Under the pieces are notes generated by a model that did not search any database, had not been told where the DNA came from, and saw nothing but the letters and a program-made list of their open reading frames with translations. The translations under genes and the position numbers were made by a program. Positions 25,905 to 55,448 of a DNA stretch of 64,000 bases are shown here, in pieces. This stretch comes from Amphiscolops sp. MND2022 (lineage: Eukaryota): positions 2,730,001 through 2,794,000 of the forward strand of contig OZ076409.1 of NCBI GenBank assembly GCA_964187785.1. Reading direction: 5' to 3'. Numbering within the stretch: position 1 is the first letter of the stretch; every line of letters starts with the position of its first letter.

Positions 25905-26359
25905 AACAAGACGGGAACGTCTAAAGTCGGCGCTATATCTAAGGCTCAAAAAGCTTAAAATTTTTGAATATTTTTTCTTTCAGAAAATGTCGCATAGTGC
26001 CGAAAAATGTAAAAGGGAGGACCCTTTGGGCTTTATTAACGTATATTCTGTTGCAAAATATCAAAAAACTCGAAAGGGGGAATCTTTTGACACATTGAAA
26101 ATTTTTCGAAAAAAAGTCGTACAATGCCGAAAAAATCGAAAGGGGGACACTTTAGTCTCGTCCGGTTTTGTAGGTTACGTTAAAAAAGTAAAGAAATGAC
26201 TAATTTGCGCTGACCGGGCTTGGCCTTATGGCCTTAGTAGTTTTAGTAGTTTCTATTGTAAGAAAAGTGGGCCAATCAGGGTGAGATTGTAGTCTGACGA
26301 GAAAAAAAACTAGCCACTGTAACTGTCGGGCTCTTTTCACTAGAAAAGCGCCAACTAAA
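25905..26359 (-). mobile_element. HINE-A copy
   Basis: Plus strand reads AACAAGACGGGAACGTCTAAAGTCGGCGC ... AAGCGCCAACTAAAAA. Confidence 0.8.
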
Positions 26360-27550
26360 AACAGCCGCTTCATCTGTAATGAAACAACACGTGTTAGCGT
26401 TTGAACATAGAAAATCAAAAGAGCCCAAAAATCAAGTTCGAATGTAGTTCAAAAGCACAATGAATTTATCACAAAAAAGTGAGAACGAAATAATTGTTTT
26501 TTTTTCAGATTTCAGGATCCTTTTTTGACCCCCGGTCGAGTTCGAATCTTTTCGAAAATTATCCGACGTACAAATTATAAGAGGAAATATACTTAATGTA
26601 TGCTTTCTCATTGAGTAAACTAGTACAAATGGAATCAAACATTTTCTTCTATAACAGTTCTGTTTTCTAGCTAACAATTCAAACCTCCACTCTTCGGTAC
26701 AAACTTCGACACCGGTTAGTTTCGATCCCATGCATGGGGACTATTGAAAACGAAACAATTCCAAAGAACGTTGCACAATAACAAAAATAGAAGGAAGACT
26801 CCCCACGCTAAAAATGAGCAACAAAACTGGGAAAAGCCAACAAAAAATTTGAAACAGACAAGATTCTGCTGAATTGAATAAGTGTTTAAGTAAAATCGCA
26901 CAAAGCTGAAAAACATACAGACCCTATTTTTTTGAAAAAGGTAAAATTGCAAAAAGTTATTTTGAAAGAAAATTCTGAGGCACTTGAGATCCTCAAAAAA
27001 TATGGTTTAAAAATTGGACAGAAGTTTAGCCAAAGAAAGTCACACATTGCCGAAAAACCTTGAAAGATTTTCAAAAAGTATAGTGCTGGATGCGAACCCA
27101 TGTACTTCTGCTTCCCAGGTCCAGCTGAGCAAGACACCTGTGGTAACCACTAGACAAAGTTGTAAAAATTTGTTAGTCAATTTAGTTTTTTAAGGCTGTT
27201 AAAGGTCAAAAAAAAACTTAGATCCATAGATATTCTTTTTCTTTTTTCTATCTTTATCTGCTCCTTACTTTTGCAAACTATTTTTTTCGATTTTTTTTCT
27301 GGAAAAGGAAAAATCTTAGTTTTTATGGGATTATTTTTCTTTCTCTCAGATGTAAATGAGAAATAAAAGAAATGAAAAAAAGAAAATTGATTTTTGTAAA
27401 CATAACGCAATGAGATTGTTTGGGCAAAAAATATTTGGTTCATTTAGTAATAATAATTGAATTTATCCGGGTGCACTGTAGATAATAATTCATCATATGC
27501 GTACAATATATGTTATATAAATAATCGTATCGAAATATCAACATATACGT

Positions 27551-33500: not shown

Positions 33501-33627
33501 AGGTTATTGCATTTCGACAACAATAGCCGGTACTAGGACATAAAGACAATCTATTTAAGGTACTATAAATAGCATCGGTTTGTGTCTGTTTATAGCTTGT
33601 CCTCTAATTCTTTTTACTTCTACTTCA
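27551..33627 (-). mobile_element. Full-length but decayed Ty3/Gypsy (Mag-like) LTR retrotransposon
   Basis: LTRs ~27551-27757 and ~33420-33627 (roughly 80-85% identical by eye); PBS TGGCACAGTCAGG next to the 5' LTR; purine tract before the 3' LTR; domain order gag-PR-RT-RH-IN. Confidence 0.93.
28024..33400 (-). pseudogene. gag-pol pseudogene of the minus-strand Gypsy element
   Basis: Zn knuckle CAKCGKPGHYAKNC, protease IIVTGSPV, RT fragments (31022-32097), RNase H PIGFASRFLSDTEKKYAINEIELLAVV, integrase DFIGPI...SVDRYSEWP, C-terminal LRRSKR; multiple stops and frameshifts. Confidence 0.92.
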
Positions 33628-36600
33628 TAAATTGAAACGTAGAAAAAATAATATAGCCCATGAAAAGGCTTCCCATAAGCAGAGGCTTTTCGAGGAGAAA
33701 ACTTTTGAAACAGTATATTTGTTTTCATTATTTTTTTTCGATGTGGTAGAGATTGACTTTTATTCAACAGTTTTTATCTATCCAGCAAAAAATTTAATTG
33801 TAATTTTTGACTGTAAATTGTGTTTTTGAAAACTTCTTCCTTGAGAAACTCTGATTATTTTTATCATGCAAATTGATCAATGTTGATTAGTTTTTGTTGA
33901 CAAGCACAACTTATTATATACTTGTTGAATATTTCCCAGCTTGAAATAATTATAAATAGCTCTTCATCACGGTTATTACTATAACTATTACTATTAGTAA
34001 TTAAAATCATTATTCTGATTATGAAAGAAAAAATTTTTAGCGGAATCTTCATTAGTTTTCCATCAAAGAGAAAAAGCAATGAAATCGAAGATATGCAGTT
34101 AAAAATATATCGTTTGAAAAAAATTGACCGCATGATCAAACCGCAAACAGAGATGCGAAAATTTTATCTAAAAAGGTCACATTTTTGCTATTTTTATCCA
34201 TCTAGATTTCCTGCATGGTGGCTTCTTTTATTCAAACTGTTGCATTATCTCGGCGTTTGAGTGCTGATCGAAAAATTGAATTTTTGACTATGAACGTTTG
34301 CAGCGATCAAATCTTGTAACATTTCAAAACGCAGCTTCCCTTAAAAAACTAGCCGAGTTGGAAACTTGACAGGAAGATTGAATTATCTCTTGCTATTTTC
34401 TAGTTCATAACTTTTCATCAAATAGCCAACACGGCTGCGATAATTACTCAAGAATTACCGTTTTCAAACGCCAAAATGCCCATAAAAGGAAAAAATTTCC
34501 ATTTAAGGAAGTTTTTTTCAAATCTACTGGTAGTCTTATTTTCTGATAAGCGTAGACAAGTTTTTCTCAGACTCGGTAAATCAATGCTCCGGAAAAATTA
34601 TAATTAAAGCTGAAAGAAGATCAGAAAAATTTGGCGGAAGATTATAGAAACACTATTAAAATCGAAACTAGTTAATGAGCAACGCCAATTAGAATAAAAG
34701 CAAAGAATTAACGATTTTATTTGTTTACCGGGATTTATTCTAAGATGGTTACCGGGGAATGCTAGACGATTGATTTTTGCTAATCACCGTTAATCTTTTT
34801 ATGTGTTTTCATTTTCATGACGTTCGAGTTAGGCTGGTGCCTTTTTTCTGACGAGAAAAAAACTAATCGTTTGACTATTGTTTCTATCTTGGGTCTCCAA
34901 TAATTTTTTTAGATAAAGTGACCATTCAACAAAATGCATGAAAGGAATTAAATTAATGCATAATTTATTTCCAGTGTCAATCATGATTTTTTTTCGGCCG
35001 GAAAGTCTCGATTTTGAACAACATTTGAAATACGGAAAAGCTTTCGGAACACTGAACTCGGAACATGTGTCTAAATCCCAAATCAAGCCCCCGCGTACAC
35101 AATTCTTTTAGTCAAAAATCAACTTCCAGAAAAAGTGTGGATGGATTCCTATCTTTCTGTGAATGAATTCTCAATATAACAGTACCAACAAACTCAGCGA
35201 GGATTAAAAGGGTTGTTTTGCCTATATTTTTACCATACACACTAAAAAATAAACTTCTTTTTAAACTGAAAATGTTTTTTTTTTAACAATTGCACACTGC
35301 CTAAAAATTCAAAAGGCGACACTTTGAGTATCAGATTGCTTTTCATAACGAAATGCCGAGAAAACCGAAATGAGATGTTTTGAAAATGTGAAAAAAGATT
35401 GAAAAAAAAATCGCACAGTGTCGAAAAACTCAAATGAGGGAATCTTTGGGCCTGAAAGCTCTTTTTCATATCCAAAGATACAAAAATACGAAAGACACGC
35501 CTTTCGGAAAATTGAGAATTTTTCGAAAAAAAGACTTACAGTGCCGAAAATAACCTTCAAATCTAAATTTTAAACATGCTGTCTGAATCGTTATAGTTTT
35601 TGTCAGACATTGCGTGGGATTTGACTCTGAGCTGTGTTGAACCCCAAAATCTTTGAACAATGTTGCCAAAATTTTAAGTCACAACACAAAATACAGTTAA
35701 AGGCGCATATCCGAATTTTTACCGTTCCCAGCGAACTATGTTGGACCTTGCCAGTACGAAGGCAAAAATACTCATTTTTGAACAGTCGTTTGGTAACTGC
35801 ATTCGCAAAACTGCAGAAATAATTTCAGAATCTGTAGGTTTTTTTTCAATTTCAATAACTCCGTTACTTTTCGGCCAAATGATTGTGATTGAAGTCAGTC
35901 TGATTTCTTCAAAGGCGATTGAACAGGATTTACAAAAAATATCACAGTGCCACTGGGCTTTTTACTTCTTCAGTATAAAGCGGTTGTTCAGTCGAAAGCG
36001 TATTGTTTCATAATGAACTATACTATGTTAAGCTGTACTGTACTAAATATCTTTTTAAATGCGTGGGTACGGAAAACTCAACAGAGGGAAACTCCACACA
36101 GAAAACTTGACACAAAAACTCAGCACGTTTTAACACATTTAAGTAATTTTAGTTACCACCTCATTTGAATTTAACTTCTGGATTTCAAACGCAAACACAA
36201 ATGTTTTTTGAGAAATTGTGTCAAATGCATGAATTATGAGCAGTACGCACAAGGAATTAACACGTATAATATAAATCACGATTCTTATATATTTTACATG
36301 TATTCAGTATCCTAAAATCTGTTGAATTTTCTTGAGTTTAGTTTTCTGTATTGAGTTTTTTGGTAATCTTCAAGATTGAGTTAAATGCGCAAATAATTTT
36401 CTTCAATAAAAGAATTCGGTAAAGCACACAAAAAAGCAATTAAAATTGCTCCTCTAGTTTTTCCTGAACAAACATGTATTAAATTGGAAATACATACTGA
36501 TTTCAATTTATAGGGTATGAACGTGGAAAAGCATTAGTTTTATTCCCGATTTTTCAGTTTGCAACACCGAAACCAATTTGAAAGTTTGAATAATTGAATC

Positions 36601-36719
36601 ATCCGAAAACTGCTTCAAAATCAATCCAATTCCGCTCTTCAGTTCAATTTTAATTTTCATAGGTGCAGCATCAATGCAAACATGGTAAAATCTTCAATAT
36701 ATTTCGTTGCTTTTCTTAT

Positions 36720-37050
36720 CAACAACAAAGATCTACACAAGTTTGCAATTTTGTTTTGCATTAAAAATTTTAAGACTTTTTGGAATAATCGGAATTCTCT
36801 TCAAAAAAGAGTCTGTAAATTATGTAAAAATTTTGTCTTGAACTTCTGTTGATGCTATATCTAGACACTAGAATGTTTGAAAGTTGTACAATAATGGCTC
36901 AAATCGATCGATATTCAGTTTTTTGGTGTTTTTCAAACCAAAAATTTATTAAAAACGTTCATACTAAAAAGCTTTCCTTCTGAATGGCTAGTTGTTTGCT
37001 GGTATTATATATAACCCACAAAATAGTTTGAAATTGTACAAAAATTGTTT
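36720..37050 (+). repeat. Dispersed host repeat; paralog of the sequence into which the plus-strand Gypsy is inserted
   Basis: Shares ATCTACA.AAGTTTGCAATTTTGTTTT ... TTTGAAAGTTGTACAATAATGGCTCAAAT ... TATAACCCA with 38400-38681 and 46775-46965. Confidence 0.75.
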
Positions 37051-37193
37051 ATAAAAGAAAGGTCCAATTTCGCCTCTTCAATTCAATTTTAATTTTGATA
37101 GGTGCAGAATCAAAGCAAACATGGTAAAATCTTGAATCTATTTCGTTGTTTTCGAATACCGGAAATGATGATGACCTTAACTGAAGAAAATTC

Positions 37194-37230
37194 AACAAGA
37201 CGCCCGCTACGGACCGGGATATTTTCCGCT
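37194..37230 (-). mobile_element. HINE-B 3' terminus (extent of the rest unclear)
   Basis: AACAAGACGCCCGCTACGGACCGGGATATTTTCC. Confidence 0.6.
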
Positions 37231-38949
37231 AAAAATGAAACGCATTAGCAAGAAACTTGTGCGGGCGTAAAATCGCAAGATATGGAATATAGTTGAGTTT
37301 TCGTAATGTAATGATTATCTTTTTCAAAAATTAGCTTTAAAAAACAAATAGGTAGCAAAAATTAACTGTATGTATGAATGGCAGATACAAAACGTACTAC
37401 AATGCGACTATTTTAATTAAATTCTATTCGAAGTCCAATACTATTTCTGGGATTACTGAAATAAATACCCCTTCTTGGAGCTAAAAAATTATGAACTTGC
37501 GAAAATGCTTCCGGTGCGTTTCTGAGTTTCCCGTTCATTTTATTCTTCTTCGAGAAAAAAATCATATTATTCTGAACTTGAGTATGCCTAGTATGTAATT
37601 GTTTCGTTGTGGAAAACAGTGGAAAATTATGCCTATGAAAATGTCTTCAGAAAATCGCGCACAAACTGAAAATTTAGATTTTTTGGTTCTTTGTATACCT
37701 GTTTATGAAAAACCATTTTATCCGCTAGACAAGAGTATGCCGAGTAGTTAGTTAATTGCTTTGTTGTTAAATTCCGCAAATACACACACCTACAAAAAGT
37801 CAAACAAATACTGAAACAAAACGAGGAAAAATGAAAAAATTCGATTCTTCAGTTCCGTAGGGTGGAGACAGAATGAATGAGCAGTTTTGCGCTTCTAAAA
37901 TGTTGCCGCCTCTCCGGACAGTATATGCATACGAAGCTACGGTTCCATTCCTACAGCCAAGTCGTGAAGCGGTATTAGACTAGAAGCTGTGATTTTGAAA
38001 AATTCACTGAAGATCACAAATTTCTGACAGCCGTTGCTTTTTTTTGCATTTGTTTTGTCTGAGTTTTTTGTGAAACTGTTTGGGGTATTTTTTGAATGCT
38101 TCCTCTAAAAAGCGTAATGGAAAAAGTGTAAGATATTCGAACTTTCGAAAACAAATTTGAAATATGTACAAAATGCAAACAAATTCTTCTCTAAAATACG
38201 GGCTGCCTTGAAGAAGAGGTTTGTTAAAACAACAGAAAATTGGACAATAATTGCGCACAAACATCAAAAATCAAAATTTGCTCAGTCCTTTCCATCTTTG
38301 TGGGGCAATTGAGTTTTTTGAACTAAAAAAACATATTCTTCTGATGCGAAGAAAGCAAGGAGGTCAACTCTTTGATATTCAAATTTACATATCATGAAAA
38401 ATCTACAAAAGTTTGCAATTTTGTTTTATATTAAGAGTTTTAGGACTTTTTGGAATTTTTTTTTATAAAAGCGGAAGTTTCTTGAAAAAAGAGTGGGCAA
38501 TCACGTAAGAAATTGGTCTCAACCTTTTGAGGTTAAAGCCACTGGAACGTTTGAAAGTTGTACAATAATGGCTCAAATGGATCATATTCGGTTCTTTCCT
38601 TTTAATCAACCAAAAAACATCAAACGTTCAAACTAGAAAAGCTTTCCTTCTTAACGGCTTGTTGTTCGGAGGTATTATAACCGTGGAATGTAGAGGTCAA
38701 ACCATTTCACATAGACTAAACTACCATAGACAGAGAGTTGCTTGACTATACTTACAAACAAACTCTAATTGATTTCTGTCTTATTTATGTTGCTACATTT
38801 AGATACTCAGTATAAAGTACGCTCTGATACAATACAGTTTGAAAGAGATTTACTTGCCACGAATATCGTTTTTAATAGATTATAGTTAGAACCTAACATG
38901 GCGCAGTAAGCAAGATTTTATCAAACTTTCCTACTACGGCACAAAACAT

Positions 38950-41900
38950 GTTTTATCAACCTACGATTATTACAAAATGGCCGTGGCAACAAAGATACAA
39001 CTACCATACCTAGAAGATACCGGACTTGACAGAAAGAAGATCTACACACCTAAAGAATGGACCGAAAGATTCCGCAACTACATAAAAAAATCCGTAACAT
39101 CGACATCAAACCTATGCTAACGGATGACGGGTACCCACCGGTGACCCATGGGACACAAAAAAACCAGAAATTAGACAAGATTTGATCTGGGGCGCCGGAC
39201 CGTCAGCAATCGAAATTATCACAAAAGGAGAATTTAACAAGGACCCTGACACAATCAAAACCGACAAGCTGATACAACTATTCCGAGAATATTACATGCC
39301 AAAAAGGAACACATACGACAGCCGTGGAGACTTCTTCTGGGCAAAACAAGAAGAAAACGAAACACCCGAAGAACACTGGAAAAAACTAACAACGTTAAAA
39401 AAGACATGTGAATACAAAGACATCAAGCAAGAAGACCTACTCATATCGAAATTTATCACAAGCATAACCGACAAGAAACTTCGGGAAAAATTTATCCCTC
39501 AACTTAAAAACCACCGTAGAACTTGTCACACAAAACAGCTACGACCGCCGACATAAACAATCCACCATATAACCCGCATTGTCGAAAGACAGAGAGATAA
39601 ATCAAGAACTCATCCGGACAATCCAAACAAACCAATATCAAAACAACAAAAACAGAAGAAAAACAACTGTGGATTCTGCGGACGGCAAAACTGGACACCC
39701 CAACACAACTGTCCGGCTAAAACGGTAAAATGCAACAACTGCCAGAAAATAGGGCACTTTGCACGGGTATGCCGCACGAAACCCAACAAAACAAAAAAAA
39801 ATCAACTGCCTGGAACATATGACCTCCGAAGAGAACAGTGAAGGAGGGGACCCGAAGAAATACTCCAAATCACACAGATCAACAAAGTCTTACCGGACAA
39901 CAAAGATCACTACGGTGTTGAAATATTAATCAACGGGAAAAACCAAAAGTTTATCATTGACACCGGCTCTCCGGTCACTATCATGCCAAACAATCCCACA
40001 CTATACAACCCAGAAGATGTCCAACCGCTGAGGGAAAGATATCAAGACGTAAACAAAAATGAAATCAAATTCCTGGGTAAAGTATGGGTATATATCGAAT
40101 ACAACAGCAAACAAACCAAACTACCACTCCTAATTACAAAATGGACCGACATCACTCCTTTATCGGGAGTAAACTGGTTGAAACAACTGCCAATTACTAT
40201 CAACAAAATCTCATCGGACAACAAAACTGACCCATTAGAAACAACAACGATACATGCGAAATTCAAGAAACTATTCGAAACAAACCACACCATCAAGAAT
40301 ACTGAAGTGAAAATACGAATAAAGACAGGGTGCTACGCAATACAACAAAAAGCACGACCAATACCGTACCACCTACAAGACGACGTAAAAAATGAACTAG
40401 ACCGACTAATTAAATCCGAACATCTAGAAAGATTAGAAACAATCAAAGAAGACTGTTTCGTATCCCCCGTCGTAATTACGGTAAAAAAAGATAAAACGGT
40501 CAAAATTGCACTTGACGCCCGAAAATTAAATGAGAGCTGCATCAAAAAAAGACCACACATGCCAAATATGGATGAGCTACTAAACCAAATATCCTCCGAA
40601 CTATCAAAGAATGAGCTAGACACAATCTGGATATCAGTCATAGTTTTAGACTACGCTTACGGACAAATGAAACTATCACCGGGAACAAGCAAACACTGTA
40701 ATTTTGCTATTACGGGAGAGAAAATCAAAGGATACTACCGATTCCTTGACGGATTTTTGACCAATCAGAAAACACTAACAAGGCAAACATGCATGATACG
40801 CACACGCAAACAGGTACGCGCTGCAGCAAAACAAACATCAACCATTTCAATTTGAAACTGACCGCTAATCAGATCAACAACACTACATACAGTGACAATA
40901 AAACCTACACCCTTTCAAAAATATGGGACAACAACATTAACCGAAAAAAGGCGGATCGATTCACAGACGGCAGATTGAAATACCAATGGGGAGACGATGA
41001 CGAGATTATGAAAATAAACAACAGAAGAGATAAATCACCGGAGACCAAAGAATTAATTGAAAGAAGAATCAAACTGACAAACCCGGGCCACGTGCGACAC
41101 CAAAGGCACAAAACACTTGAAAGGAAAATCCTCCTCCCAAGAAAACCAGATGACGTCGACAGGAAAGAAATAAAACGGATTGACATCCGCCTACGAAGAA
41201 AAGAAGAAAACATCGGTGGCGGCTACTTTGAGAACTTCCGGAACGAAATTTCCCAAACACCCGGCACATCGGCCTAAAACAACCCGGACACCATCAGAAT
41301 CCAGAAAGCCGCACCAGACACCGAATCCACGGTCTACTCATCACCAATAGAACCGGTAATAACAGAATAACCGGGATCATACCCAGCAATCCCCGTGCAA
41401 GAAAACCGCGACGGCCCGATTGAGGAAATAGCCGTCCACTACGTGCGAGTAAATAAAATCATTGAGACAAAGGCACCGAGAAACCGTCAAGAGGAGGACA
41501 ACATCAGATCCGCGGAACTCGATTTTATGCTCGACCTGGAGACGCTAATCAAAGAAACAGCAGGCGACCCAGACTTAGTAGATGTACAATGCTGCATTGA
41601 AGACAACAACATCCAGGCCATCGCAGAAGACTACAAACAAGTAGCGAGAAAACTGACCCACCGCAGGGGAATAACAATGGTTAATGATCAAATCATCATT
41701 TCAAAAAGCCTGCGATATGCCGCACTCATCACGTTACACCTCGGCCACCCAGGAATGAACAAGATGTACAATGATGTAGTTATCTTCTGGTGGCCAAATA
41801 TGCGAGCGGACATAGAGAAGAAAGCGAAAACCTGTTCCGCATGCCTTAATGCCACGAAGAAATTATAAACACAATTACATAGTACCGAAAAATCAAAACT

Positions 41901-44242
41901 TGAACCGTCAAAACACCCAGGAGAGGAAATCCAAATCTACTTCACGGGAAATCTAAACAGTAAACACCTAGACTCCTCCCCCTTTATATTAATAGCCGTA
42001 GATAAAAACACCTGCTGTCCAGTAGCAAAAATCTGCAAAAATACAAACCACGATACGGTTATAACTTTCCTACGGGAATACATAAACAATTATGGAGTAC
42101 CGAAAACATTTAAATCGGACAATGGCAGCGCTTTTATCTCAACAGAATATTAAAGTTTCTGCAAAGAATACAAAAAAATACGCAAAGACGGCACACCAAA
42201 CCTGCACACTGGTACAGGATTGGTTGAAAGAACCATTCAATCACTGAAGAATCTGATAAAGACAAATTTAGAAGAAACACAAAATTTACGAGAAAGCTCA
42301 AACAAAGCATTATATATAGTTCGTTTTACTATACACTCAGAAATAAAAAAACCTCCTTTGAACTACCTTTTGGACGAGAACCCGAAACAAAACTATCTAA
42401 TATAAAAAATGCTATTTCAGTTGACTCCAAGGACCTATCACTGTACATCACCCGCAACAAGGCCGGCGAGATCACAGACCATCTGGTGATGTCAAAAAAG
42501 AAAATCAATTACACGAAAAACCGGAGAGGAATGACATTCACCCAAAAACAAAAACCGTCAAATACGGTAAGTAACGGGAAAAATACAGATTATCCGTTTA
42601 CTTTTTTCGGAAAAGCACGCTTGAAAGCAAATTTAGCAATAAACCGCAAATTGCAATTTCGGGAACTAAACACACGGTAACTACTGACAAGAATAAAAAT
42701 ATACACAGGAAACTAAAATCTAACCCGATACCCTTCCATGCAACAGCAACACCAACGAAAAGGATCAACACTAGACTGACCACCCCCACCACCACCACCA
42801 CCACCACCACCACCACCACCACCACCACCACCACCACCACCACCACCACCACCACCACCACCACCACCACCACCACCACCACCACCACCACCACCACCAC
42901 CACCACCACCACCACCACCACCACCACCCACCACCACCACCACCACCACCACCACCACCACCACCACCACCACCACCACCACCACCACCACCACCACCAC
43001 CACCACCACAACCACCACCACCACCACCAACACCACCACCACCACCACCACCACCACCACCACCACCACCACCACCACCACCACCACCACCACCACCACC
43101 ACCACCACCACCACCACCACCACCACCACCACCACCACAACCACCACCACCACCACCACCACCACCACCACCACCACCACCACCACCACCACCACCACCA
43201 CCACCACCACCACCACCACCACCACCACCACCACCACCACCACCACCACCACCACCACCACCACCACCACCACCACCACCACCACCACCACCACCACCAA
43301 CACCACCACCACCACCACCACCACCACCACCACCACCACCACCACCACCACCACCACCACCACCACCACAACCACCACCACCACCACCACCACCACCACC
43401 ACCACCACCACCACCACCACCACCACCACCACCACCACCACCACCACCACCACCACCACCACCACCACCACCACCACCACCACCACCACCACCACCACCA
43501 CCACCACCACCACCACCACCACCACCACCACCACCACCACCACCACCACCACCACCACCACCACCACCACCACCACCACCACCACCACCACCACCACCAC
43601 CACCACCACCACCACCACCACCACCACCACCACCACCACCACCACCACCACCACCACCACCACCACCACCACCACCACCACCACCACCACCACCACCACC
43701 ACCACCACCACCACCACCACCACCACCACCACCACCACCACCACCACCACCACCACCACCACCACCACCACCACCACCACCACCACCACCACCACCACCA
43801 CCACCACCACCACCACCACCACCGACAAGCCATCCTGTTCAAAGACAGCAGAAACGACCTGCATGTACCGCAGAAAAGAGACACCAAGACCGGAGAACAC
43901 GGAGAGCAGTGCTGATTGGTTAAAAAGAAGGGACCAACCAAGAAACGAAAAAGGCCAATTCACAAGCCCCGAAAAGTCGGCAGGAAACCAATGGATCTCG
44001 ACCTGAGCATGGTATCTGATGACGACGATTTCCAATGCTACAAGACCAGCGAAGGAAAGCCCGTCCACACCAATGTAGATGACGAACTACAGCTGCTCCC
44101 GAAGGGCACAAACTTAACACCCGAGGCAGGTATTAAAACAAATTTACCGTCCGAAGAATCCCACCAAACTGTGAGAAAATCGAAAAGAATACCTAATGCA
44201 AAACAAACCGAAAAATATCCCATACTACACAAAAAACATTAA
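38950..44242 (+). pseudogene. gag-pol pseudogene of the plus-strand Gypsy element; RT C-terminus and RNase H deleted
   Basis: Two-knuckle gag CGFCGRQNWTPQHNCPAKTVKCNNCQKIGHFARVC, protease FIIDTGSPVT, RT (KIALDARKLN) breaking off at GYYRFLDGF (~40757), integrase HLGHPG...CSAC and VERTIQSLK. Confidence 0.92.
42779..43824 (+). repeat. (CCA)n microsatellite, ~1.04 kb
   Basis: Nearly pure CCA with a few CAA interruptions and one extra C near 42929. Confidence 0.99.
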
Positions 44243-44631
44243 AAAGAAAATAAATAATAATTGTGTTTTACAGGGAAACCAGACCGATCAATCGAATCAA
44301 TCACACAATAAAGAGGAAATCAACCGTGAAATACGGACAACCAACCGCAAAATACGGACAACGATAGAAGACCAAAGCCTTAACCGATTATTTCGGAGCT
44401 ACCATCCAAAACAATCGCCCACAACCGAATCCACCCGGAGGAGGGGGAATGTGGAATGTAGAGGTCAAACCATTTCACATAGACTAAACTACCATAGACA
44501 GAGAGTTGCTTGACTATATTTACAAACGAACTCTATTTGATTTCTGTCTTATTTATGTTGCTACATTCAGATACTCAGTACAAAGTACGCTCTGATACAA
44601 TACAGTTCGAAAGAGATTTACTTGCCACGAA

Positions 44632-44633
<2 letters not shown>

Positions 44634-44702
<69 letters not shown>

Positions 44703-45652
44703 AAAGAATCAATTCACTGAAGACAGGAAGCGTAAACAACAATACGTATGAATGCTACATTTACATGTTTGAAAGATATATATTCAGGAAGAAATACGAT
44801 ATCAGGAACGACACACAGAAGATCTACATTTCACATGATAGGTACACATGTTATTGTAGTTAAACTTTGTTCTAGTCAGATTTTTCAAATATTCAGAAAG
44901 TGCATGTTTGAATTTTTCCAACGGCCAATTGAAGTCAATGATTTTATCTGTAAGTAACACATTGCTTATCCAAGGAGCACGAATACAAAACTTTTCCATG
45001 GATTTCTACTTTGAGGAGTAGCTGATTTCAAAAAGATCAAGTCGTGAATTTCTGGTTGGATTGCATTTTTGCTTCAGAGGCATCGTAATATGGAAATCGA
45101 CACGTTTGTTCACTATTTTCCAGAGAAAAAATGACATCGGCCCGAACAAGTTGATAACAAATTGGAAGGAGATCCAATCTTTCCAAGGTACATTCATAAT
45201 CCAGGCCAGGACAGATCCATAGGAGCACTTTTTTCTGGAAATTTTCCAAGCACTGTAGGCTAAAACAACAAGGGGCCCAACAAGGTGAAGCATACAAAAG
45301 AATACTCAGAACTAAAGTTTTATACAACATTAACTTCTTTCCAGTTGAGAGACTAAACGGTAACACACGTCTGATAAATTGAAACACTTTGATCCCTTTT
45401 TGGATTGCTTTTAGGATGTGATCTTTCCATTTTAAATCTTTTGATATCAGGACACTTAAATCCAATATTTGATCTACGGAAATGAATGGGTTTTCTCCAA
45501 GGCGTAACGTCAAAGGTTGCGTTGAATTTGAGCAGGGGAAAAACTTCAACTTTGTAGTATTGAACTCCATTCCGTTATCATCAGCCCATTGTAGTAGACT
45601 GTTGATATCCATTTGGGTTTCAATGTTGAAGGGTAAAGGAATATGGGTAAAG
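44634..45652 (-). mobile_element. 5'-truncated non-LTR retrotransposon (CR1/L2/Jockey-group-like) with (ACT)n tail
   Basis: RT C-terminal ORF DINSLLQWADDNGMEFNTTK...DLSVLISKDLKWKDHI...LYKTLVLSILLYASPCWAP (45037-45612), frameshifted tail to 44802, short UTR, then (TAG)n on plus strand at 44632-44701; GAATA repeated at both junctions. Confidence 0.88.
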
Positions 45653-45663
45653 GAATATCGTTT

Positions 45664-46749
45664 TTAGTCGCCGCTTTATCCTTTTAAGGAAAAATGCCCG
45701 ACTATAGCAGTGACCTTTTTAGTCGGCGCGTTTTCCTTTTAGGGAAAAATGCCCGACTATAGCAGTGACCTTTTTTTCTTTTTTTCTTCAGACTACAATC
45801 CTCACACTGATCAGTCCACTTTTTACAATCCTGAGCAGAGCACCTGAGGCCAAGTCCGCCCAAGGCAAACTTTACTCCAAAGGGTCCCCCTTTTATTTTT
45901 TACTTTTTTAACGTAACCTACAAAACCGGACGTGCCTCAAGGGTCCCCCCTTTGGATTTTTTCGGCACTGTGCGACTTTTTTTCGAAAATTTTTTAATGT
46001 CCCCAAAGGGTCCCCCCTTTGAGTTTTTTGATATTTTGCAACGGAATGTTTGTTAATAAATCCAGAAGTGTCCCGCCTTTTACATTTTTCGGCACTATGC
46101 GACTTCTTTTGAAAGAAAAAATTTTTTCAAAAATTTCAATTTTTTTTCCAAAAAAAGTGTTTTACGCTTTTTGAGCCTTAGATATGGCGCCGACTTTAGA
46201 CGTTCTCGTCTTGTTTTTTCTTCAGACTACAATCCTCACACTGAAAGGTCCACTTTTCTTACAATTCTTACAGTCTTAAAATCTTACAATTCTCACTTAG
46301 CAAATTTAAAATACTGGCGCAAAAGCTTGCGAAGTAGTATTTTTACATCATCTAAGAAACTCAAAGGACCAAAGGGTACTGCCTTAGAGTATTTTCGGCG
46401 CTGTGAGACTTTTTTTCGAAAAAAAATTCCCAAAGGTTCCCCCCTTCAATTTTTTTGGAGTTTTCCGACAGAACGGATGTTGAAAAATCCCAAAGGGTCC
46501 CCCTTTCAGTTTTTTCGGCATTGTGAGACTTTTTCTCAAAATTTTTTTTCACCAAAAGTGCCCCTCTAATTTTTTTTGATTTGCGACAGAATGGATGAAA
46601 AATCTCAAAGTGTCTCCTCTGGTGCGCCAATTCGGTTCAACTTTTGGGTGTTTCCGGTACCGTAGAAGAAACTACTTTGACACTTTGAAGTCCTTTTGCT
46701 GTTTTGGAGCCTTAGATATGGCGCCGACTTGGGCCGTTCCCGGCTTGTT
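45664..46749 (+). mobile_element. HINE-A copy (outer) inserted in the Gypsy 3' LTR
   Basis: 5' hairpin 45664-45716, remainder 46216-46749 ending GGCGCCGACTTGGGCCGTTCCCGGCTTGTT; LTR sequence resumes exactly after it. Confidence 0.85.
45718..46215 (+). mobile_element. HINE-A copy (inner) nested in a T-run of the outer copy
   Basis: TTTAGTCGGCGC ... GGCGCCGACTTTAGACGTTCTCGTCTTGTT. Confidence 0.85.
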
Positions 46750-47663
46750 AATAGATTATAGTTAGATCTTAACAGTTATATCCACTAGAACGTTTGAAAG
46801 TTGTACAATAATGACTCAAATGGATGCATATTCGATTCTTTCCTTTTTATTCAACCAAAAAACATCAAACTTTCAAACTAGAAAAACTTTCCTTCTGAAC
46901 GGCTTGTTGTTCGGAGGTATTATAACCCATGAAAACAGTAGTTTGAAGATGTACAAAAGTTGTGAAAGGAAGGTCAAAAATTGGAATTGTCGGCTATTTT
47001 TGGCTATGTTTACACAAAAACTTCAATTGTCTCTTCTAAATTGCTACAGTGCTGCTGGTTGTTTTGACATTGAATTTTGTGGATGTTCTAATTCTTAGAA
47101 ATCAGCAAAATCTGTTCATAAATTGCATGTATACGGTGAAAGATAGCAAAATTTAGGATTTTTTGGCCTATTGGGTGTCATTGGCAGGGGTGAGTTAGGG
47201 CTGTTTTAGTAATAGCTTTTTCGGAAGAAGTTCGATTGAAATTGAAGCGTACCTACTCAGTGTAAAATATCTTGAAACTCTTGCCAAGAATCCTGCATAT
47301 TCTAGAAACCCTTGGTAAGAATCTTGGTGTTCCCGTGTTGGAAATTTGTCGAACAAATCCGCAAATCATTATTTTATCCAAAAATTTTTGTCTCAACATG
47401 GAATTTCATGCTATTCCATGAATGTTTTCAAATGGTTTAATGCGATAACTTCATAGCAATAACATGCATGGATTTATATTGAACTATATTTATATTGAAG
47501 TAATGGTTTCATATATGGAATTCCAGGAAAACATCATGAATTTTGATTACGAAATTTCCATCCAACAATTACATCTGGAAACTCTACCTCACGAAAATGT
47601 TACGATAAAACGATAGATACAGCAACTATCAAAAAACTATCAACTTTTTTGTATCTATCACCA

Positions 47664-48372
47664 CCCAGTGGAAAATATCTTGAAACTCTTGCCAAGAATC
47701 TTGCAATTTCCTGAAAGCCTTTGTAAGAATCTTGACAAGATTCTTACCAAGAGCGCCAAGAATATGTACGATCTTGCAAGATCTTGCCAAGAACTTCAAG
47801 AAAAAGGCCTAATTTGTTCGACTGAAAAAACGCAGAAAAGTGTTTTTAGTACAAAAAACCTTCCAGGAAAAACCAAGAATCTTGTCAAGAAATCCAAGAA
47901 AATCCAAGAAACACCAAGAATCTTGCCAAGAAATCCGGGAAAATGCAAGAAATGCCAAGAATCTTGCCAAGAGTTTCAAGTGAAAACCCAACAAAAGTGA
48001 ATGAAAACAAACAAAAACCCACGCCAACTTCGGCTTGATCAGCGTACCTATTATACCACGGCTGTTCGCGCGACCAACCAAACTATCATGTTCTGAATTT
48101 CAATACTTTGTGTTGTCTTATATCCAATACTTCAAAGAATGATAGTGTAGCTGGAAGTGCGAACAACAGCAAAAACTTGTAAACAAAATTGTTGTTTGTT
48201 TTTATTTTCTTGACACTCTTGATAAGACTCTTACCAAGATTCCTATCAAGAATTTCAAGAGTTTTGTGTCAAGCAAGAATAAACAAGATCTTATCAAGGG
48301 TTTCAAGAGGTAACGGGAATTTGCGGGAAAATCCAAGATCTTGGCAAGAGTTTCAAGATATTTTACACTGGG
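47664..48372. mobile_element. MITE with ~38-bp TIRs and CAAGAATCTTG repeats
   Basis: CCCAGTGGAAAATATCTTGAAACTCTTGCCAAGA / TCTTGGCAAGAGTTTCAAGATATTTTACACTGGG; an additional left end at 47256. Confidence 0.8.
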
Positions 48373-49151
48373 TAGAGGGCAAATTCTTCTAGACTTTACG
48401 TTGTTGCTATTTATTTTACTATAATTAGTCTCAGTCTGAAGTACCTGTTACTGTCTAATTATGAGCATTATGTAAATTCCACTCAGTAGCTAAACAACAA
48501 AAACTGAGTTTCATGTTAAAGTCTTTTTTTAACAAAGAGATTACAAGATGGCGCAAAAAAGGTTCCATTTTTGAGGCAGTTGATTTTTGTGGAAGAATCT
48601 CTATAATTTGGGTATCAAAAAAGAACGAAACAAAGGACAGAAATGGCGGTTCAGAATGCAATGTTTTTCCATTATAGAAATTTGAACGGAACCCAACAGG
48701 GGTCATAACAAAACAACCATTGCAATGTGTTTCGCATGAAAGATGAACGGAAAGATAAAATTATGCGCCAATCGCTCAAAATGTGCTACCTTTTTTGGGT
48801 CAAAACATGTTGAAAATTTATATCCACGAAAGCTGGATTTAATGCTACATAATTGCAATTTTGGAAATTTTCATACAATTTTTGTCAAATATAAAATAAC
48901 TCAACTTTCTCACATGTATCTAAATTATCTAATTGAACGATGAAGGGGGTCTCCGATTGTGCCTCTCCTCCATCTGTCTTATCCGAATCAGGTAGATGAG
49001 AGGCTTTCTAAAAACCCAGTCTGGTTTCTCATTCAGGACATTTCGACAATACAATAATGTCTGAAGACTCAATGAGTGTATTAACACAAGACGAATTATA
49101 TGAAACTTTCCTTGGTACGAAATTATCGGGAGGTAGTACATGTTTAAAAAA

Positions 49152-50800: not shown

Positions 50801-52790
50801 ATAACGAACTTTGCTCGGAATTCAAAGATACCTTTAGAAAAAAGTATTTCCTCAATTCCCCGGAGGAAAGCAATTCTGTTTTTCTAAATCGGCGTCCGTT
50901 TTCATTTCCCCACAGCAAGCTATGGTACCATACTTGCAGACAAGTCAAACAATTGGGGACTGGAAACTGTGGTTAGTTCCAAAGTGATTCGCTCAAGGTA
51001 ACAAAGATCTGAGTGCTCACTGTTGCTCTTTTTCAAAAAGCGCATTTCTGTGAAGAAGAGTTATCATTTGGGTTGTCATTGACCATACCACTACGCTAGG
51101 GTCGAAGGACTTGCTTAAGGCCTAAAATTGGCGATTTGAGAGCGATTCGAGCGTCATACCGCGCCAGACTGAGAACAAGCTGAATGCTCTAACAACTACA
51201 CCATTCTCCGTAATTAATGCACCTAGGCGCTAGTTTATTCGAAGAGTTCGTGGTTACAATAGTTTCGTTTGGAGCAAAATTTGGTCGATTTCAGACATTG
51301 TTCAGTCTATTTGGTTAATAGAATTTTTTGATTTTCCTTTGAGATTTTTTGAACTAAATGATGTTTGATGAATGAAATCGGCATTGATTGTTAGACAATT
51401 GAAAATAAAGTGAATTCTTTGAAAAAAACTTGGAAAGATTTCAAAAAATCCAACAAATCGGCGCGCGAATAATTAAAAAGATGAAAATTGATGAAAGAAA
51501 CATAAAAATACTCAAAAAAAAGCATAAATGAAAGTACTTTTCATCAAAAATCACACAGATTGATTCATTATAAACACTAGCGGAGTAACAATAAGACAAA
51601 TAACGTGCAAATTTGTAGATTCGCTAGATATTGATTTCCTACAAATTGCCAATCATCCTTGCTTTCATTCTGATTTAAAGTATTCCATAAAACCCTTTCA
51701 TATATTTCAACTTCAAAGCGAACCAAAAAAAGCTTCATAGCTTCGGAGCCATTCTAAAATCGTATGTCGGCGGCTTTCAAAGAAAATGCGTAACAATAAT
51801 GCAACAATCATTTACCCACAAAATTATCTCTCCAAGCGCTGAAAACAAAATCATTGTCAGTCGCATCTGAATTTGTACAAAACTTCTAAGTAAATTTGCA
51901 GAAAAACCGCGAAATCTGCGTTTTGCCTCTGGCAGAGAGAATTGTAGTGATTGTGATTCTATTTCCATATATATAATCCCCGACATTTTAAACAATGAAA
52001 AAAAAACAATGTTGAGTTTCAGTCTTACAAAGTAGATATTGTTTTGAGAATTGAAAAGCCTAAAAGTGAAGCCTCTTGGAAAAGCGAATGAAGTAGATAA
52101 TTGTTAAATTTCCAAGTCAGGGTTGAAACGGTTCCATACGTTTTGTTTATAATTGTTTTTCAAATATATAGTTCAGTGTCCTATTTCACCAAAATCATCA
52201 AAGATTTCGGTTGTCAATTCCCGAGATTATACTCTTAACTGGTCTTGAGATTTATTAGCTTAGTGCTGTAATTTAGTGCTTTAATTGAACACGTAGCAAA
52301 TTTTAAAAACTAAATTCAAACAAAAATTCTGAGAAAATATAGAAAAGAAAGAAGTTTAGTTTGAAAGCAAACTTATCATGAGATGCCGATTTCCGGCCGC
52401 CAAGTTGCGTGAACACTTGCGAACTTAAGATTTGATTTCATAGATCTACAGTAGCGTTCTAAAATATCGCAACCTCATTGTTTAAAATGGCAAAATTGAA
52501 ATCCAAATTTCTAATGAACTGTCGCGAATACAAAAATTTGCCGTATACTAAAGGTTCTTAGAATTTTATCTAGTTTACAAAAATATTTGTTGAAATTTCT
52601 AAGAACCATACTGAAAATGCAAATTTTGGAAAATTTTAATTGAAATTTGAGTTTTTCCGAAAATTGAGTGGCTTAGAAATAAAACTTCTGGATTTTTTCA
52701 TTCAGAGACTCCCTATAAGCTCCCTAATCTATTGAATTGTTTTGATCGAGAATTTGTTTCGAATCAGGAAAAATGCACTATATTTTGTGT

Positions 52791-54576
52791 GGGAGGCGGA
52801 AATTTCGTCGCAAGAAATTTCGTCGTCAGACATTTCGTAGTCAGCAAGTTCGACGTCGGAAATTCTTGCTAATTAAAAGCGCCAACCTAATCTCCACTTA
52901 AGTAACATACTGGAAAGCGTTATTGTTGATAATTTCTAAAGTTTGATCGAATATTCATTAACACAACCAAGACTATAATTAATAGGACTCACAATTTTTG
53001 TATAAAAGAGAAACAGACGTTCAGACATCGAATTTTAAACTAACAACCGAGGCCGATCAATTGTCATTCGTCAAGGGTACTTTTACAATCTCGAAAGAGA
53101 AAGTGACATCAAAACTTTTTGACGTTGCAACTTTTTCTACAAAACTAAATTAAATGTCGATTGAAAACAATTGGATCAACCGTGCAGAAAAACTTAGTTG
53201 CCGATATAGCACCGCCTTTACTATTTGCATTGTTGACCGACTACGAGAAAGCACACATCAAAACATTTGGCAAAGCGTATCCCCTAGCCACTCTCAGTGG
53301 TTGCATATTTCATCTTGCGCAAGCAATAATGAGGAACGTCAACGAATGCGGATTGAAACACAAGTATATCAACGACCACCATTTCCTAATTCGACTGAAG
53401 TGTCTGCAAGCTCTGAACTTAATTCCTGAACCAATCGTTATATAGTGCTTTGAACTGATTGCTGGCGACTTTGAAGACGATGAATGAGCTTTGTGCAACT
53501 ACTTTGAGCGTACATATTTCGGCGCAATTAATCCTCGATGAAAAGAAAGACAGCAGCCACAGTATAGCCTTGAATTTTGGAATATGCTAGACCGATCAAT
53601 CCTAGGAGCCCCGCTGACAACCAACCACAGCGAAGGTTGGCATGCCATAATGAATTCAGCTTGCGGTCGCAATAGTCCAAATATTTGTCAAATCCTGGAC
53701 TTGCTTAAATCAGAAATGGGTCTGGTCCGTTTGGAATTACTTAATTACAAAATCGGCGGCGAATGGAGAGTGAGGACTTATGTGAATGGTTCCACAAAAA
53801 AGCTGCAATACCTTTGCTTGACAGAAATACCGAACTAAGATGACAAAAAAGAAATCTTGAAGTGTTTTGCAATGCTGTTTTAATAATTCAGAGTAAATAA
53901 TTTCTTCCCTTTGTGTTCGTGATTTTATTCATTACGAATAGAACTTTTTAATTTCGATATTGTTTTTAGAAAGAACATTTTGCAAGCTAACAAGTGGTTG
54001 CACTCTCCCCCACCGCAGATTCTGGTTAATTCCGGCAAAGATTCAGTCCTTTCAGAAGCAGCTCAATTTGAGAGTCCTTAATGACCATCTGTGCGTACCT
54101 CAGTAAACCATCATTGGTACGATGGTTTTTTTTCCGGAAGAAAGTTGCAGTACGGAGGCTTTGTATTATAATTTTCGTGAAACAAAACACGTGATTTAAA
54201 AATTCTACCATAATTGCGACACAAACCAATTTCCAATCAATTTGTTTCATCAGGTAGAAATGCAACCTAAACGTTTTTTCTTCGGAAAACAAATCATTGT
54301 CTGTAGTCAATTTCCAAAAAGAATAAATTAGAAGAATAGAATCTTGGTAAAACATGTGAAAAAATTGAGGTTGATTCAAGCTCCCACTGTGCTTTTTGTT
54401 CATACACATTATTTCATACAGTTATCAAGTGATTCAATTAAGATTGACGTCACGCGAGCTGTATTACGACTACAATTCCGACGACGACGTTTCTGACGAC
54501 GAAATTTCTTACGAGGAAATTTCTCACGACTAAAATTCCGACGACGAATTTTCTGACGACGAAATTTCTTGTAATC
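52791..54576 (+). mobile_element. Decayed Mutator-like (MULE) DNA transposon
   Basis: Inverted subterminal arrays GAAATTTCGTCGTCA / TGACGACGAAATTTC; flanks TTTTGTGT and TTTTGTAT (8 bp, 1 mismatch); internal transposase remnant. Confidence 0.82.
53161..53838 (+). pseudogene. MULE transposase C-terminal remnant
   Basis: LTDYEKAHIKTFGKAYP...GCIFHLAQAIMR (D...CxxH motif) and TTNHSEGWH...SPNICQILDLLKSE, interrupted by stops. Confidence 0.85.
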
Positions 54577-55448
54577 TTTTGTATCTATAAGTAATGAGGT
54601 ACGTGTATTAAGATAGGCTATAAGAATTGTAGCTGAAAACTTTTAAGATTTGTGACAGTTTTCAAGATATTTGGATTTGAAATTCGCACTTTTAAGCAAT
54701 AAAGTTGCGATATTTCAGAACGCTACTGTATTTCGACGTAGATTTGTATGCAACTTCTTTTCCAGTTTTCGGACTTCACAAGTTTTGCAACTTTTTGCGG
54801 GAATTCTACCAATTATGCATTTCTTACAAAAATCTTATTATAAGAACAAGAATAGCAAATTTTGAAAGCTTGCTACAATGTCGAGCATTTATTACAAGGT
54901 TATCATAACACTTTTGCTTGCAAAATTGGCATCTATTGGTAAGAAATGCGGATTATGATTTCCAGCTATGGTGTCCTTCTATCTCATGGAACTTTTAGCA
55001 GGAAACCATAATTCACATTTCATGCTGCAATTGCCTGAAATCACGGTAACTATGATACCAACCAACTGTTCCTATCACTATTTTGTGCTAATTAGGTGTT
55101 AAGAAGCTCCAGGAAACGCGGTGTCGAAAACCGTCCTCAATGCTACCCGGGCCATTAATGTAACACTGTCAGCGATATAGAGATAGATACAGATTTTGAA
55201 GAGATACATTGGAAACGACACTAGAAAAGTCCAAAGAATTTTGAACTAATTTTGGTCAAAATTTTCTTCTCAGAAAATTACACAAAATTGCATTTTCTGT
55301 ACGAATTTCATACCAATAAATGAAAATTTTTCAAGAGGGTTATAAGAATTTTGTAACAAACTTTAAAAGTTGCGATTCTTGGACAAAGTTGTAAAATAGA
55401 CTGCAATCTAGGTGTTTCTTGTTGTTATTCCAGATATATATCATTAAG

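What the first reader, a model, noticed from the sequence alone, without database searches (positions are those of the whole stretch)
44450..46774. Nested insertions in one LTR, with the 5' LTR giving the empty sites
The 5' LTR reads CCACGAATATCGTTTTTAATAGATTATAGTTAGAACCTAACA. The 3' LTR reads CCACGAATA-[LINE]-GAATATCGTTTTT-[HINE-A outer[HINE-A inner]]-AATAGATTATAGTTAGATCTTAACA. The HINE therefore went into a T5 run with no TSD beyond two ambiguous Ts, the LINE duplicated about 5 bp (GAATA), and a second HINE entered a T-run of the first. The LINE and outer HINE sites are under 10 bp apart. The LTRs differ at about 9 of 217 positions, so all three insertions postdate a fairly young LTR event.
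Basis: seen in the sequence. Interest (0 to 1): 0.7.

Follow-up and report, generated by a model that had tools for sequence, protein, structure and literature searches.

The report
Nested transposons inside a Gypsy LTR
A dead Gypsy retrotransposon has had one of its two terminal repeats split by a truncated LINE and by two nested rolling-circle elements, which is ordinary transposon piling, but the element itself sits between two copies of about 150 bases of host DNA instead of the usual 4-6, probably the scar of a botched integration.

Summary
Observation confirmed. The three 3' LTR pieces match the 217-bp 5' LTR with 9 substitutions and no indels. The HINE-like pair adds only two T to a T5 site. 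Two limits on the reading: the nested pair may have arrived as one composite, and 4% LTR divergence is uncalibrated (internal stops suggest 4-5% decay per copy). New here: the Gypsy element has no 4-6 bp TSD. A 151-bp host stretch is repeated directly against both ends (93%) and the 5' LTR begins CG, not TG. Best reading: uncoupled integration of the two cDNA ends, as described for retroviruses (273 bp, PMC2857682; 61-450 bp, PMC4422153); about 60%. Rivals are a recombinant of two insertions or a deletion in an older tandem. No second family copy with flanks was found, and the scan's notes held no such LTR case. Ordinary nesting with one unusual scar.

The parts
36727..37067 (+). Older, uninterrupted copy of the host repeat (x-y-z), used as outgroup and as a model of the empty Gypsy site
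   Evidence: 75.7% to 38397-38679 and 75.8% to 46783-46978
38397..38531 (+). Host repeat, part x (left flank)
   Evidence: Matches third copy, score 118 vs shuffle mean 23, 0 of 200 shuffles
38532..38682 (+). Duplicated host stretch y (151 bp), abutting the 5' LTR; last base C can be read as host or as a changed LTR terminal T
   Evidence: 92.8% over 153 columns to 46775-46927; 9 substitutions and 2 one-base indels
38682..38898 (+). 5' LTR, 217 bp, begins CG instead of TG, ends CA; carries the empty sites at 38861-38873
38899..38906 (+). Primer-binding-site-like TGGCGCAG (tRNA not identified)
   Evidence: sequence; the second Gypsy element has TGGCACAG at the same place
38907..44436 (+). Decayed gag-pol (PR-RT-[RH]-IN order); several frameshifts and stops; about 325 codons (RT C-terminal half and RNase H) absent near 40750; (ACC)348 run at 42779-43823
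   Evidence: tblastn with P0007, Pfam map of P0007, Pfam of window ORFs
44437..44449 (+). Polypurine tract
   Evidence: sequence
44450..44633 (+). 3' LTR, piece 1 (begins TG, ends GAATA)
44632..44702 (-). LINE 3' tail, (TAG)23.7 on the + strand; first TA shared with the target
44703..45628 (-). 5'-truncated LINE: last 274 codons of the RT protein and 3' UTR; one in-frame stop and one extra base
   Evidence: 96% and 94% to P0001; a 4,002-nt contig of run X1 matches 44713-45628 with 41 other letters and 1 gap
45629..45652 (+). 24 extra bases at the LINE 5' junction, built of AAG, the LINE's next five bases and a copy of target GAATAT; makes a perfect 14-bp tandem (45631-45658)
45653..45665 (+). 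3' LTR, piece 2 (second GAATA copy, TCG, T5)
   Evidence: 0 differences in 13
45661..45715 (+). Outer HINE-like element, 5' 55 bp (subterminal repeat inside a hairpin); leading T run shared with the target
   Evidence: fold z=-2.8; alignment of 11 window 5' ends
45716..46215 (+). Inner HINE-like element, complete; boundaries lie in T runs (T5 left, T6 right)
   Evidence: 73% over 516 columns to 25903-26361; 9-bp perfect subterminal inverted repeat 45721-45729 / 46187-46195; 5' fold z=-4.2
46214..46749 (+). Outer HINE-like element, remainder with 3' subterminal repeat (46721-46729) and GCCG/CGGC hairpin
   Evidence: first 49 bp 90% to the inner copy, last 60 bp 92-93% to 60379 and 62990 copies
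46748..46774 (+). 3' LTR, piece 3, ends CA
   Evidence: 2 differences in 27
46775..46927 (+). Duplicated host stretch y' abutting the 3' LTR
46928..46978 (+). Host repeat, part z (right flank)
   Evidence: matches third copy 37024-37067, 0 of 200 shuffles

Best explanation
Step 1 (inferred, about 0.6): one Gypsy cDNA integrated with its two ends uncoupled. The U5 end (..CA) was joined normally at 46774/46775; the U3 end, which now lacks its terminal T, was joined 151 bp further along the same host repeat, by host repair or by a second, separate strand transfer, so 151 bp were duplicated instead of 4-6. Step 2 (shown from the empty site, about 0.95): after integration a LINE was copied in by target-primed reverse transcription on the opposite strand, primed at GAA(TA) with up to 2 bases pairing to its (CTA)n tail, stopped just after the FADD motif, and was sealed with 24 extra bases copied from both DNA ends, leaving a 3-5 bp duplication. 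Step 3 (shown for the site, about 0.9; mechanism inferred from structure): a non-autonomous rolling-circle element of the HINE/DINE-1 kind was pasted into the only T>=4 run of the LTR, adding two T net. Step 4 (nesting about 0.85; place of nesting open): a related element sits in the first T run of the outer one. The order of steps 2 and 3 cannot be read. Nothing suggests a function; all four elements are dead or non-autonomous.
For: LTR pieces 9/217. No direct 4-6 bp TSD: left ATAAC, right GTTAT. y/y' 92.8%, each abutting an LTR end; the third copy runs x-y-z with a single y, and y occurs only three times in the window. y/y' divergence does not differ from LTR divergence (9/150 vs 9/217, Fisher p=0.47; p=0.16 counting indels against 8/216); differences are balanced against the outgroup (5 vs 4, 2 neither); six internal stops fit 3% decay per copy (P=0.12-0.25). 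Base 38682 equals the next host base in y', as expected if the LTR lost one base. Precedents, passages read: XMRV clone with a 273-bp duplication and a damaged U3 end (PMC2857682); HIV/ASLV one-ended integration (PMC5041404); germline HERV-K loci with 61, 250 and 450 bp duplications (PMC4422153). LINE: family reads FADDFKLIAMLP-NIETQ, window only NIETQ; the X1 contig stops matching at 45628; extra bases from flanks and 5-bp TSDs are known for L2-clade LINEs (PMC4245944). HINE: T-rich target, at least two T each end, no target change (PMC4067079); 10 of 10 3' ends found in the window carry >=2 T and 8 of 8 5' ends found by the motif carry 4-6 T.
Against: y/y' is nominally more diverged than the LTRs (6.0% plus 2 indels vs 3.7-4.1%, none) and has more transversions (5 of 9 vs 2 of 9). 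The flanks form a perfect 6-bp inverted repeat (TATAAC..GTTATA; 0.0003-0.0006 per site, post hoc), which suggests that both ends were placed by a sequence-preferring integrase, as two independent insertions would be. No microhomology is visible at the left junction, though PMC5041404 says it is usual. A 28-bp z-like trace lies at 38147-38173 (0 of 200 shuffles, but 1 of 78 real tiles scores as well). The region has other long direct repeats (90 bp around the third copy). The internal stop count is high for 2.1% per copy (P=0.03-0.08). No read, second individual or second family copy covers either Gypsy junction. The subterminal repeats are 9 bp, shorter than the 12-15 bp of the mite HINEs.
Confidence: 0.6

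Rival explanations
1. The element is a recombinant (or an assembly mis-join) of two normal insertions of the same family, one after y and one before y, in two alleles or two paralogous copies of the host repeat. The LTRs then come from different integrations and their 4% is only an upper bound on age.
For: No direct TSD; flanks are reverse complements, fitting one palindromic target preference; y/y' slightly more diverged than the LTRs; intact elements without TSD are a known product of unequal recombination (PMC7251063, passage).
Against: Needs two same-orientation insertions 151 bp apart in a repeat seen only three times in 64 kb, plus a separate T-to-C change at the very first LTR base that happens to equal the next host base.
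Confidence: 0.17
2. The host repeat was already a tandem (x-y-z..x-y-z) and uncoupled integration, or a later event, deleted the stretch between the end of the first y and the start of the second. y and y' are then older than the element.
For: The third copy is bracketed by a 90-bp direct repeat with period 438, so local tandems exist; y/y' carries 2 indels and 5 transversions; weak z-like trace upstream of x. One-ended integration can delete as well as duplicate (PMC5041404).
Against: No x after z, no 90-bp unit on either side, no further y (5 of 6 non-control tests and all 3 at shuffle level; the one positive is matched by 1 of 78 real tiles).
Confidence: 0.15
3. Separate question: the nested HINE-like pair was formed elsewhere and moved into the LTR as one 1.09-kb composite, so only two insertions hit this LTR.
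For: Outer ends are intact; the two 5' ends are 93% alike while all other window copies are 62-80%, so the two are close kin in their first 100 bp; self-insertion and composites are described for Fusarium rolling-circle elements (PMC5148889).
Against: A composite must read through the inner 3' end, which is intact; the cited model predicts two 5' ends with one 3' end. No second composite in the window.
Confidence: 0.25
4. Separate question: there is no nesting; 45661-45770 is a local 55-bp tandem duplication of one 5' end, followed by a whole element and a 5'-less second element.
For: TRF reports a 55-bp unit, 2.1 copies, 93%.
Against: The second element resumes exactly at the T run where the first 55 bp stop; the alternative needs a duplication and a precise truncation.
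Confidence: 0.1
5. The 151-bp duplication is an assembly artefact at a repeat boundary.
For: No raw or long reads were available.
Against: y and y' differ at 11 places, balanced against the outgroup; a duplicated overlap would be near-identical.
Confidence: 0.04

Closest known systems
Aberrant (one-ended) retroviral integrations: XMRV clone C-3 (PMC2857682, passages), HIV/ASLV (PMC5041404, passages and Discussion), HERV-K(HML-2) loci with 61-450 bp repeats (PMC4422153, passages)
   Same: One normal CA end, one damaged end, long direct duplication of host DNA in place of a 4-6 bp TSD.
   Different: Here a Gypsy-type element without env in a non-vertebrate-like genome; only one terminal base is affected; flanks show a 6-bp inverted symmetry; an old fixed or segregating copy, not an observed event.
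HINE / DINE-1 non-autonomous Helentrons (PMC4067079, passages and section 5)
   Same: No coding capacity, asymmetric subterminal inverted repeats, 5' inverted repeat containing the subterminal repeat (as in DINE-1), 3' hairpin, T-rich target, no target change beyond T's.
   Different: Subterminal repeat 9 bp (12-15 bp in mite, 13 bp in DINE-1); it starts about 28 bp from the 3' end (38-60 bp in mite); no autonomous partner identified.
L2/CR1-group LINE inserts such as zebrafish ZfL2-1 and ZfL2-2 (PMC4245944, passages)
   Same: 5' truncation, short tandem-repeat tail, about 5-bp TSD, extra 5' bases copied from flanks.
   Different: Clade of this LINE not tested; the CR1-group label rests on recalled motifs.
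Ty3/Gypsy LTR retrotransposons (PR-RT-RH-IN order)
   Same: LTRs, PBS, PPT, gag-pol with integrase after RT; nearest relatives 75-78% identical.
   Different: No short TSD; 5' LTR starts CG; RNase H region deleted.
Composite FoHeli elements of Fusarium (PMC5148889, passages)
   Same: Self-insertion close behind the 5' end of a related element.
   Different: Here both 3' ends are kept.

Membership tests
Ty3/Gypsy LTR retrotransposon | Two direct LTRs with PBS and PPT | tested here: met
Ty3/Gypsy LTR retrotransposon | pol order PR-RT-RH-IN | tested here: met
   PR at 39842+, integrase zinc finger at 41371+; colinear with P0007, whose order is PR-RT-RH-IN; RH itself is deleted in this copy
Ty3/Gypsy LTR retrotransposon | TG...CA termini | tested here: inconclusive
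   3' LTR TG...CA; 5' LTR CG...CA
Ty3/Gypsy LTR retrotransposon | 4-6 bp target-site duplication (marks a normal integration, not the family's descent) | tested here: not met
   ATAAC left, GTTAT right; 151-bp duplication instead
Ty3/Gypsy LTR retrotransposon | RT phylogeny with named clades | not tested
   none of the 120 listed relatives carries a name
Non-LTR retrotransposon (LINE), 5'-truncated copy | RT-encoding ORF2 homology | tested here: met
   96% to P0001/P0002, which carry RVT_1
Non-LTR retrotransposon (LINE), 5'-truncated copy | Intact 3' end with tail, truncated 5' end, short TSD | tested here: met
CR1/L2 group | RT phylogeny; APE endonuclease | not tested
   label from recalled motifs and tail type only; the endonuclease part is outside this copy and was not seen in P0001 by Pfam
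HINE / DINE-1 | Asymmetric subterminal inverted repeats | tested here: met
   9 bp perfect (inner), 8 of 9 (outer)
HINE / DINE-1 | subTIR length 12-15 bp and 38-60 bp from the 3' end, as in the mite families | tested here: not met
   9 bp; starts about 28 bp from the 3' end
HINE / DINE-1 | 3' hairpin; 5' inverted repeat | tested here: met
   3' stems of 4-5 bp (z -1.7, -2.1: weak alone, but kept in 10 window copies); 5' folds z -2.8, -4.2
HINE / DINE-1 | Insertion in T-rich target with no TSD | tested here: met
   T5 empty, T5+T2 filled; a TT duplication cannot be told from two element-borne T
HINE / DINE-1 | Shared ends with an autonomous Rep/Helicase Helentron | not testable with these tools
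   no genome held; three pattern hits elsewhere were unrelated. Filed as HINE-like, not as a member
One-ended (aberrant) integration | One normal end, one damaged end, long duplication or deletion | tested here: met
One-ended (aberrant) integration | Empty allele has the stretch once | tested here: inconclusive
   only a 76% paralogue shows one y; no allele data
One-ended (aberrant) integration | Short homology at the aberrant junction (usual, not universal) | tested here: not met
   none visible at 38682/38683

The most novel reading that the evidence does not exclude
This Gypsy family has an integrase that routinely attacks two GTTATA-like motifs on opposite strands about one nucleosome length (about 150 bp) apart, so that both ends are integrase-made and the regular target duplication is about 150 bp; such elements would be missed or called recombinant by every TSD-based LTR finder. 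The perfect inverted 6-mer at both junctions and the 151-bp length allow this; one copy cannot show it.
Probability: 0.04. Interest if true: 0.7.

Novelty: new member of a known kind. Interest (0 to 1): 0.2.

Why it matters
The nesting itself is routine. It gives a clean empty site for an unnamed HINE-like family: a net gain of two T at T5 means that most of the 4-6 T seen before these elements are host bases, which fixes their boundary rule. The 151-bp flanking duplication, if made at integration, is a germline fossil of uncoupled integration for a Gypsy element; I found such cases described for retroviruses but not for Gypsy in four searches (nearest: 23-26 bp somatic TSDs of three Drosophila LTR families, PMC8090852). 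It also warns that an LTR pair without a TSD need not be a recombinant, and that dating nested insertions from it needs a check of the flanks.

Tried and rejected
No genome held, so no copy counts or other alleles. One public run held 5% of the words; its contigs gave no cover on the LTR pieces, y' or z, which is no evidence of absence; none of 15 listed joints (1 more not shown) skips the inner element or the LINE, also uninformative. LTR pattern in metagenome contigs: 0 hits. HINE 3' pattern: 3 hits, all limited to the 20-31 matched bases, taken as chance. Gypsy ORF in viral contigs: 0 confirmed of 5. Rfam 36000-48500: 0; tRNAs: 0. My own first idea that GAATAT was LINE sequence, making the TSD illusory, was rejected: the family reads LIAMLP there. 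The idea that the 8-base filler word was copied from the Gypsy interior was dropped: one more + and one - hit in 64 kb is chance level. The second Gypsy element (27552-33627) is another family (no LTR similarity) and cannot give the target motif. Papers opened without useful content: PMC7063773, PMC7497039; PMC5932611 treats double insertion at one site, not this structure. No supplements were read; the empty-site figures of PMC4067079 (additional files 2, 3) may bear on the T count. Scan look-ups returned nothing near or alike and only non-LTR long-repeat cases.
Full report
Setting. The window is AT-rich (about 35% G+C) and dense in repeats. No genome is held for it. The only public run that held part of the stretch is labelled marine metagenome and held 5% of the words. 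A repeat-rich eukaryote is inferred; the organism was not identified.

The observation. I compared the 5' LTR with the three 3' LTR pieces one by one: 7 substitutions in 184, 0 in 13, 2 in 27, no gaps, 9 of 217 in all (4.1%, 95% CI 1.9-7.7%). A PBS-like TGGCGCAG and a purine tract bound the interior. The interior is colinear with P0007, a 1,824-residue relative with PR-RT-RH-IN order; this copy has several frameshifts, six in-frame stops in 3,168 counted bases, lacks about 325 codons of RT and RNase H, and holds (ACC)348.

The LINE. It lies on the minus strand from a (TAG)23.7 tail at 44632-44702 to 45628. A search of longer proteins gave 5 relatives among 438 candidates, the best two 96% identical, with RVT_1. 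They read FADDFKLIAMLP-NIETQ where the window has only NIETQ, and a 4,002-nt contig of run X1 matches 44713-45628 and no further. So 45629-45652 is 24 extra bases. They form a perfect 14-bp tandem with the target and contain, twice, the five bases that the LINE would have next (inferred from two relatives read in different frames) and once a copy of target GAATAT. This is what copying back and forth between the two DNA ends would leave (inference); extra 5' bases taken from the flanks, and 5-bp TSDs, are reported for zebrafish L2-clade LINEs (PMC4245944, passages). Because GAATAT is not LINE sequence, the duplication is real; it is 3 to 5 bp because TA also belongs to the tail. Of the 41 differences from the contig, 39 were listed; 35 are coding, 18 synonymous and 17 not, more synonymous than neutral decay gives (p=0.002-0.007 with transition weighting). 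Part of the 4.5% is therefore lineage difference; the non-synonymous rate of about 3% bounds decay, in line with one stop and one extra base. The LINE is not much younger than its host element. CR1/L2 group is a recalled label, not tested.

The HINE-like pair. Both elements have a 9-bp subterminal inverted repeat, a 5' hairpin containing it (z -2.8 and -4.2) and a short 3' hairpin. Ten 3' ends of the family were found in the window. PMC4067079 (passages and section 5) describes HINEs as having 12-15 bp subTIRs, a 3' palindrome, T-rich targets, at least two T at each end and no target change. Target behaviour and layout fit; subTIR length and spacing do not match the mite families, and no autonomous partner could be tested, so I call them HINE-like. 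The empty site has T5, the filled site T5 and T2 (counted by hand). All 8 5' ends caught by the motif have 4-6 T; since the net gain here is two, most of those T are host bases (inference from one site). This T5 is the only T or A run of 4 or more in the LTR. The order A, A', B', B, with B resuming at the T run where A stops, is best explained by nesting. The outer element has a 5' part like the inner type (90-93%) and a 3' end like another window type (92-93%). Whether nesting happened here is open: composites from self-insertion are discussed in PMC5148889 (passages).

The five bases left of the element are ATAAC and those right of it GTTAT: no direct TSD. Instead 38532-38682 is repeated at 46775-46927 (92.8%), each copy touching an LTR end. 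A third, 76% copy of this host repeat at 36727-37067 runs x-y-z with one y, and a 21-base word of y occurs exactly three times in the window. The 5' LTR begins CG, and that C is also the next host base in y', so the LTR may simply have lost its first base (then 8 of 216). This matches one-ended integration: an XMRV clone had a 273-bp duplication with a damaged U3 end, 1 of 15 sites (PMC2857682, passages); in HIV and ASLV one end is inserted by integrase and the other by host enzymes, giving long duplications or deletions (PMC5041404, passages and Discussion); HERV-K loci with 61, 250 and 450 bp repeats show that this is inherited (PMC4422153, passages). Divergence is compatible with y and y' being as old as the element (Fisher p=0.47; p=0.16 with indels; 5 vs 4 against the outgroup).

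Against that reading. y/y' is nominally more diverged and has two indels. The junctions are symmetric, TATAAC on the left and GTTATA on the right (0.0003-0.0006 per site, noticed after the fact), which hints that integrase chose both. No microhomology is seen on the left. A weak z-like trace lies upstream of x (0 of 200 shuffles; 1 of 78 real tiles as good), and the third copy is bracketed by a 90-bp repeat. Recombination between two insertions, a known source of TSD-less elements (PMC7251063, passage), and deletion in an older tandem remain possible; I give them 0.17 and 0.15 against 0.6. These weights are my judgement, not computed.

Dating. An insertion in one LTR only must postdate integration of the DNA that carries it (established knowledge of reverse transcription), under every reading above. 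The 4% is uncalibrated; the internal stops imply 4.3-5.5% per copy (CI 1.6-12%), above the 2.1% half-divergence (P=0.03-0.08), so the element may be older than its LTRs say or was already defective when copied. 'Fairly young' holds only relative to the second Gypsy element, whose LTRs are 87% alike.

Closeness of the sites. LINE and HINE sites are 3-10 bp apart; nominal chance 0.35%, post hoc, in a window with about one such HINE-like end per 6 kb. A shared cause (open chromatin at the LTR end, or a repair intermediate) is conceivable and untested.

Verdict. A confirmed, ordinary stack of known kinds of element, with two small additions: the boundary rule for an unnamed HINE-like family and a probable fossil of uncoupled Gypsy integration. 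Four literature searches found long duplications for retroviruses and 23-26 bp somatic TSDs for three Drosophila LTR families (PMC8090852, passages) but no 100-bp-scale case for Gypsy; the library lacks most subscription papers, so this is weak evidence of novelty. The scan's notes held nothing on this genome or sequence and only non-LTR long-repeat cases by words. Interest 0.2.

Noticed in passing
window:36625-36713 and 37063-37152: A 90-bp direct repeat (90%) brackets the third copy of the host repeat; either a 438-bp tandem remnant or another long target duplication.
   Followed up: partly
window:27552-33627 (-): Second, older Gypsy element of another family; LTRs 87% alike, PBS TGGCACAG, flanks TACGT/TAAAT (a possible decayed 5-bp TSD); RT, zinc knuckle and integrase fragments.
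   Followed up: partly
window:42779-43823: (ACC)348, 98% pure, inside the integrase C-terminal region of the Gypsy element; a 1-kb microsatellite expansion within an element only about 4% old.
   Followed up: no
window:238-4883: 83-bp satellite with a higher-order pattern: runs of 83-bp units broken by a 271-bp spacing that carries a 120-bp repeat.
   Followed up: no
window:55446-55978: 533-bp near-perfect palindrome (93%), 9-nt centre.
   Followed up: no
window:7971-63479, ten copies: The HINE-like family has at least two 3' types (GACG..CGTC and GCCG..CGGC hairpins, a compensatory change) sharing one subterminal repeat; the outer copy mixes the 5' end of one type with the 3' end of the other.
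   Followed up: partly
window:6443-6542, 52447-52864, 54465-54730: 15-bp tandem units (GACGACGAAATTTC-like) in three places; 52447-52529 and 54648-54730 are inverted copies, possibly the ends of a 2.3-kb element.
   Followed up: no
window:47255-47326, 47663-47734, 48339-48375: A short repeat in two direct and one inverted copy just right of the finding, next to 10/41-bp tandem units at 47862-47972.
   Followed up: no
run X1: Summed contig depth of 1,200-2,500 over the inner HINE-like core and the 3' ends against 17 over the LINE suggests a very high copy family; the tool warns that depth is no copy number.
   Followed up: no
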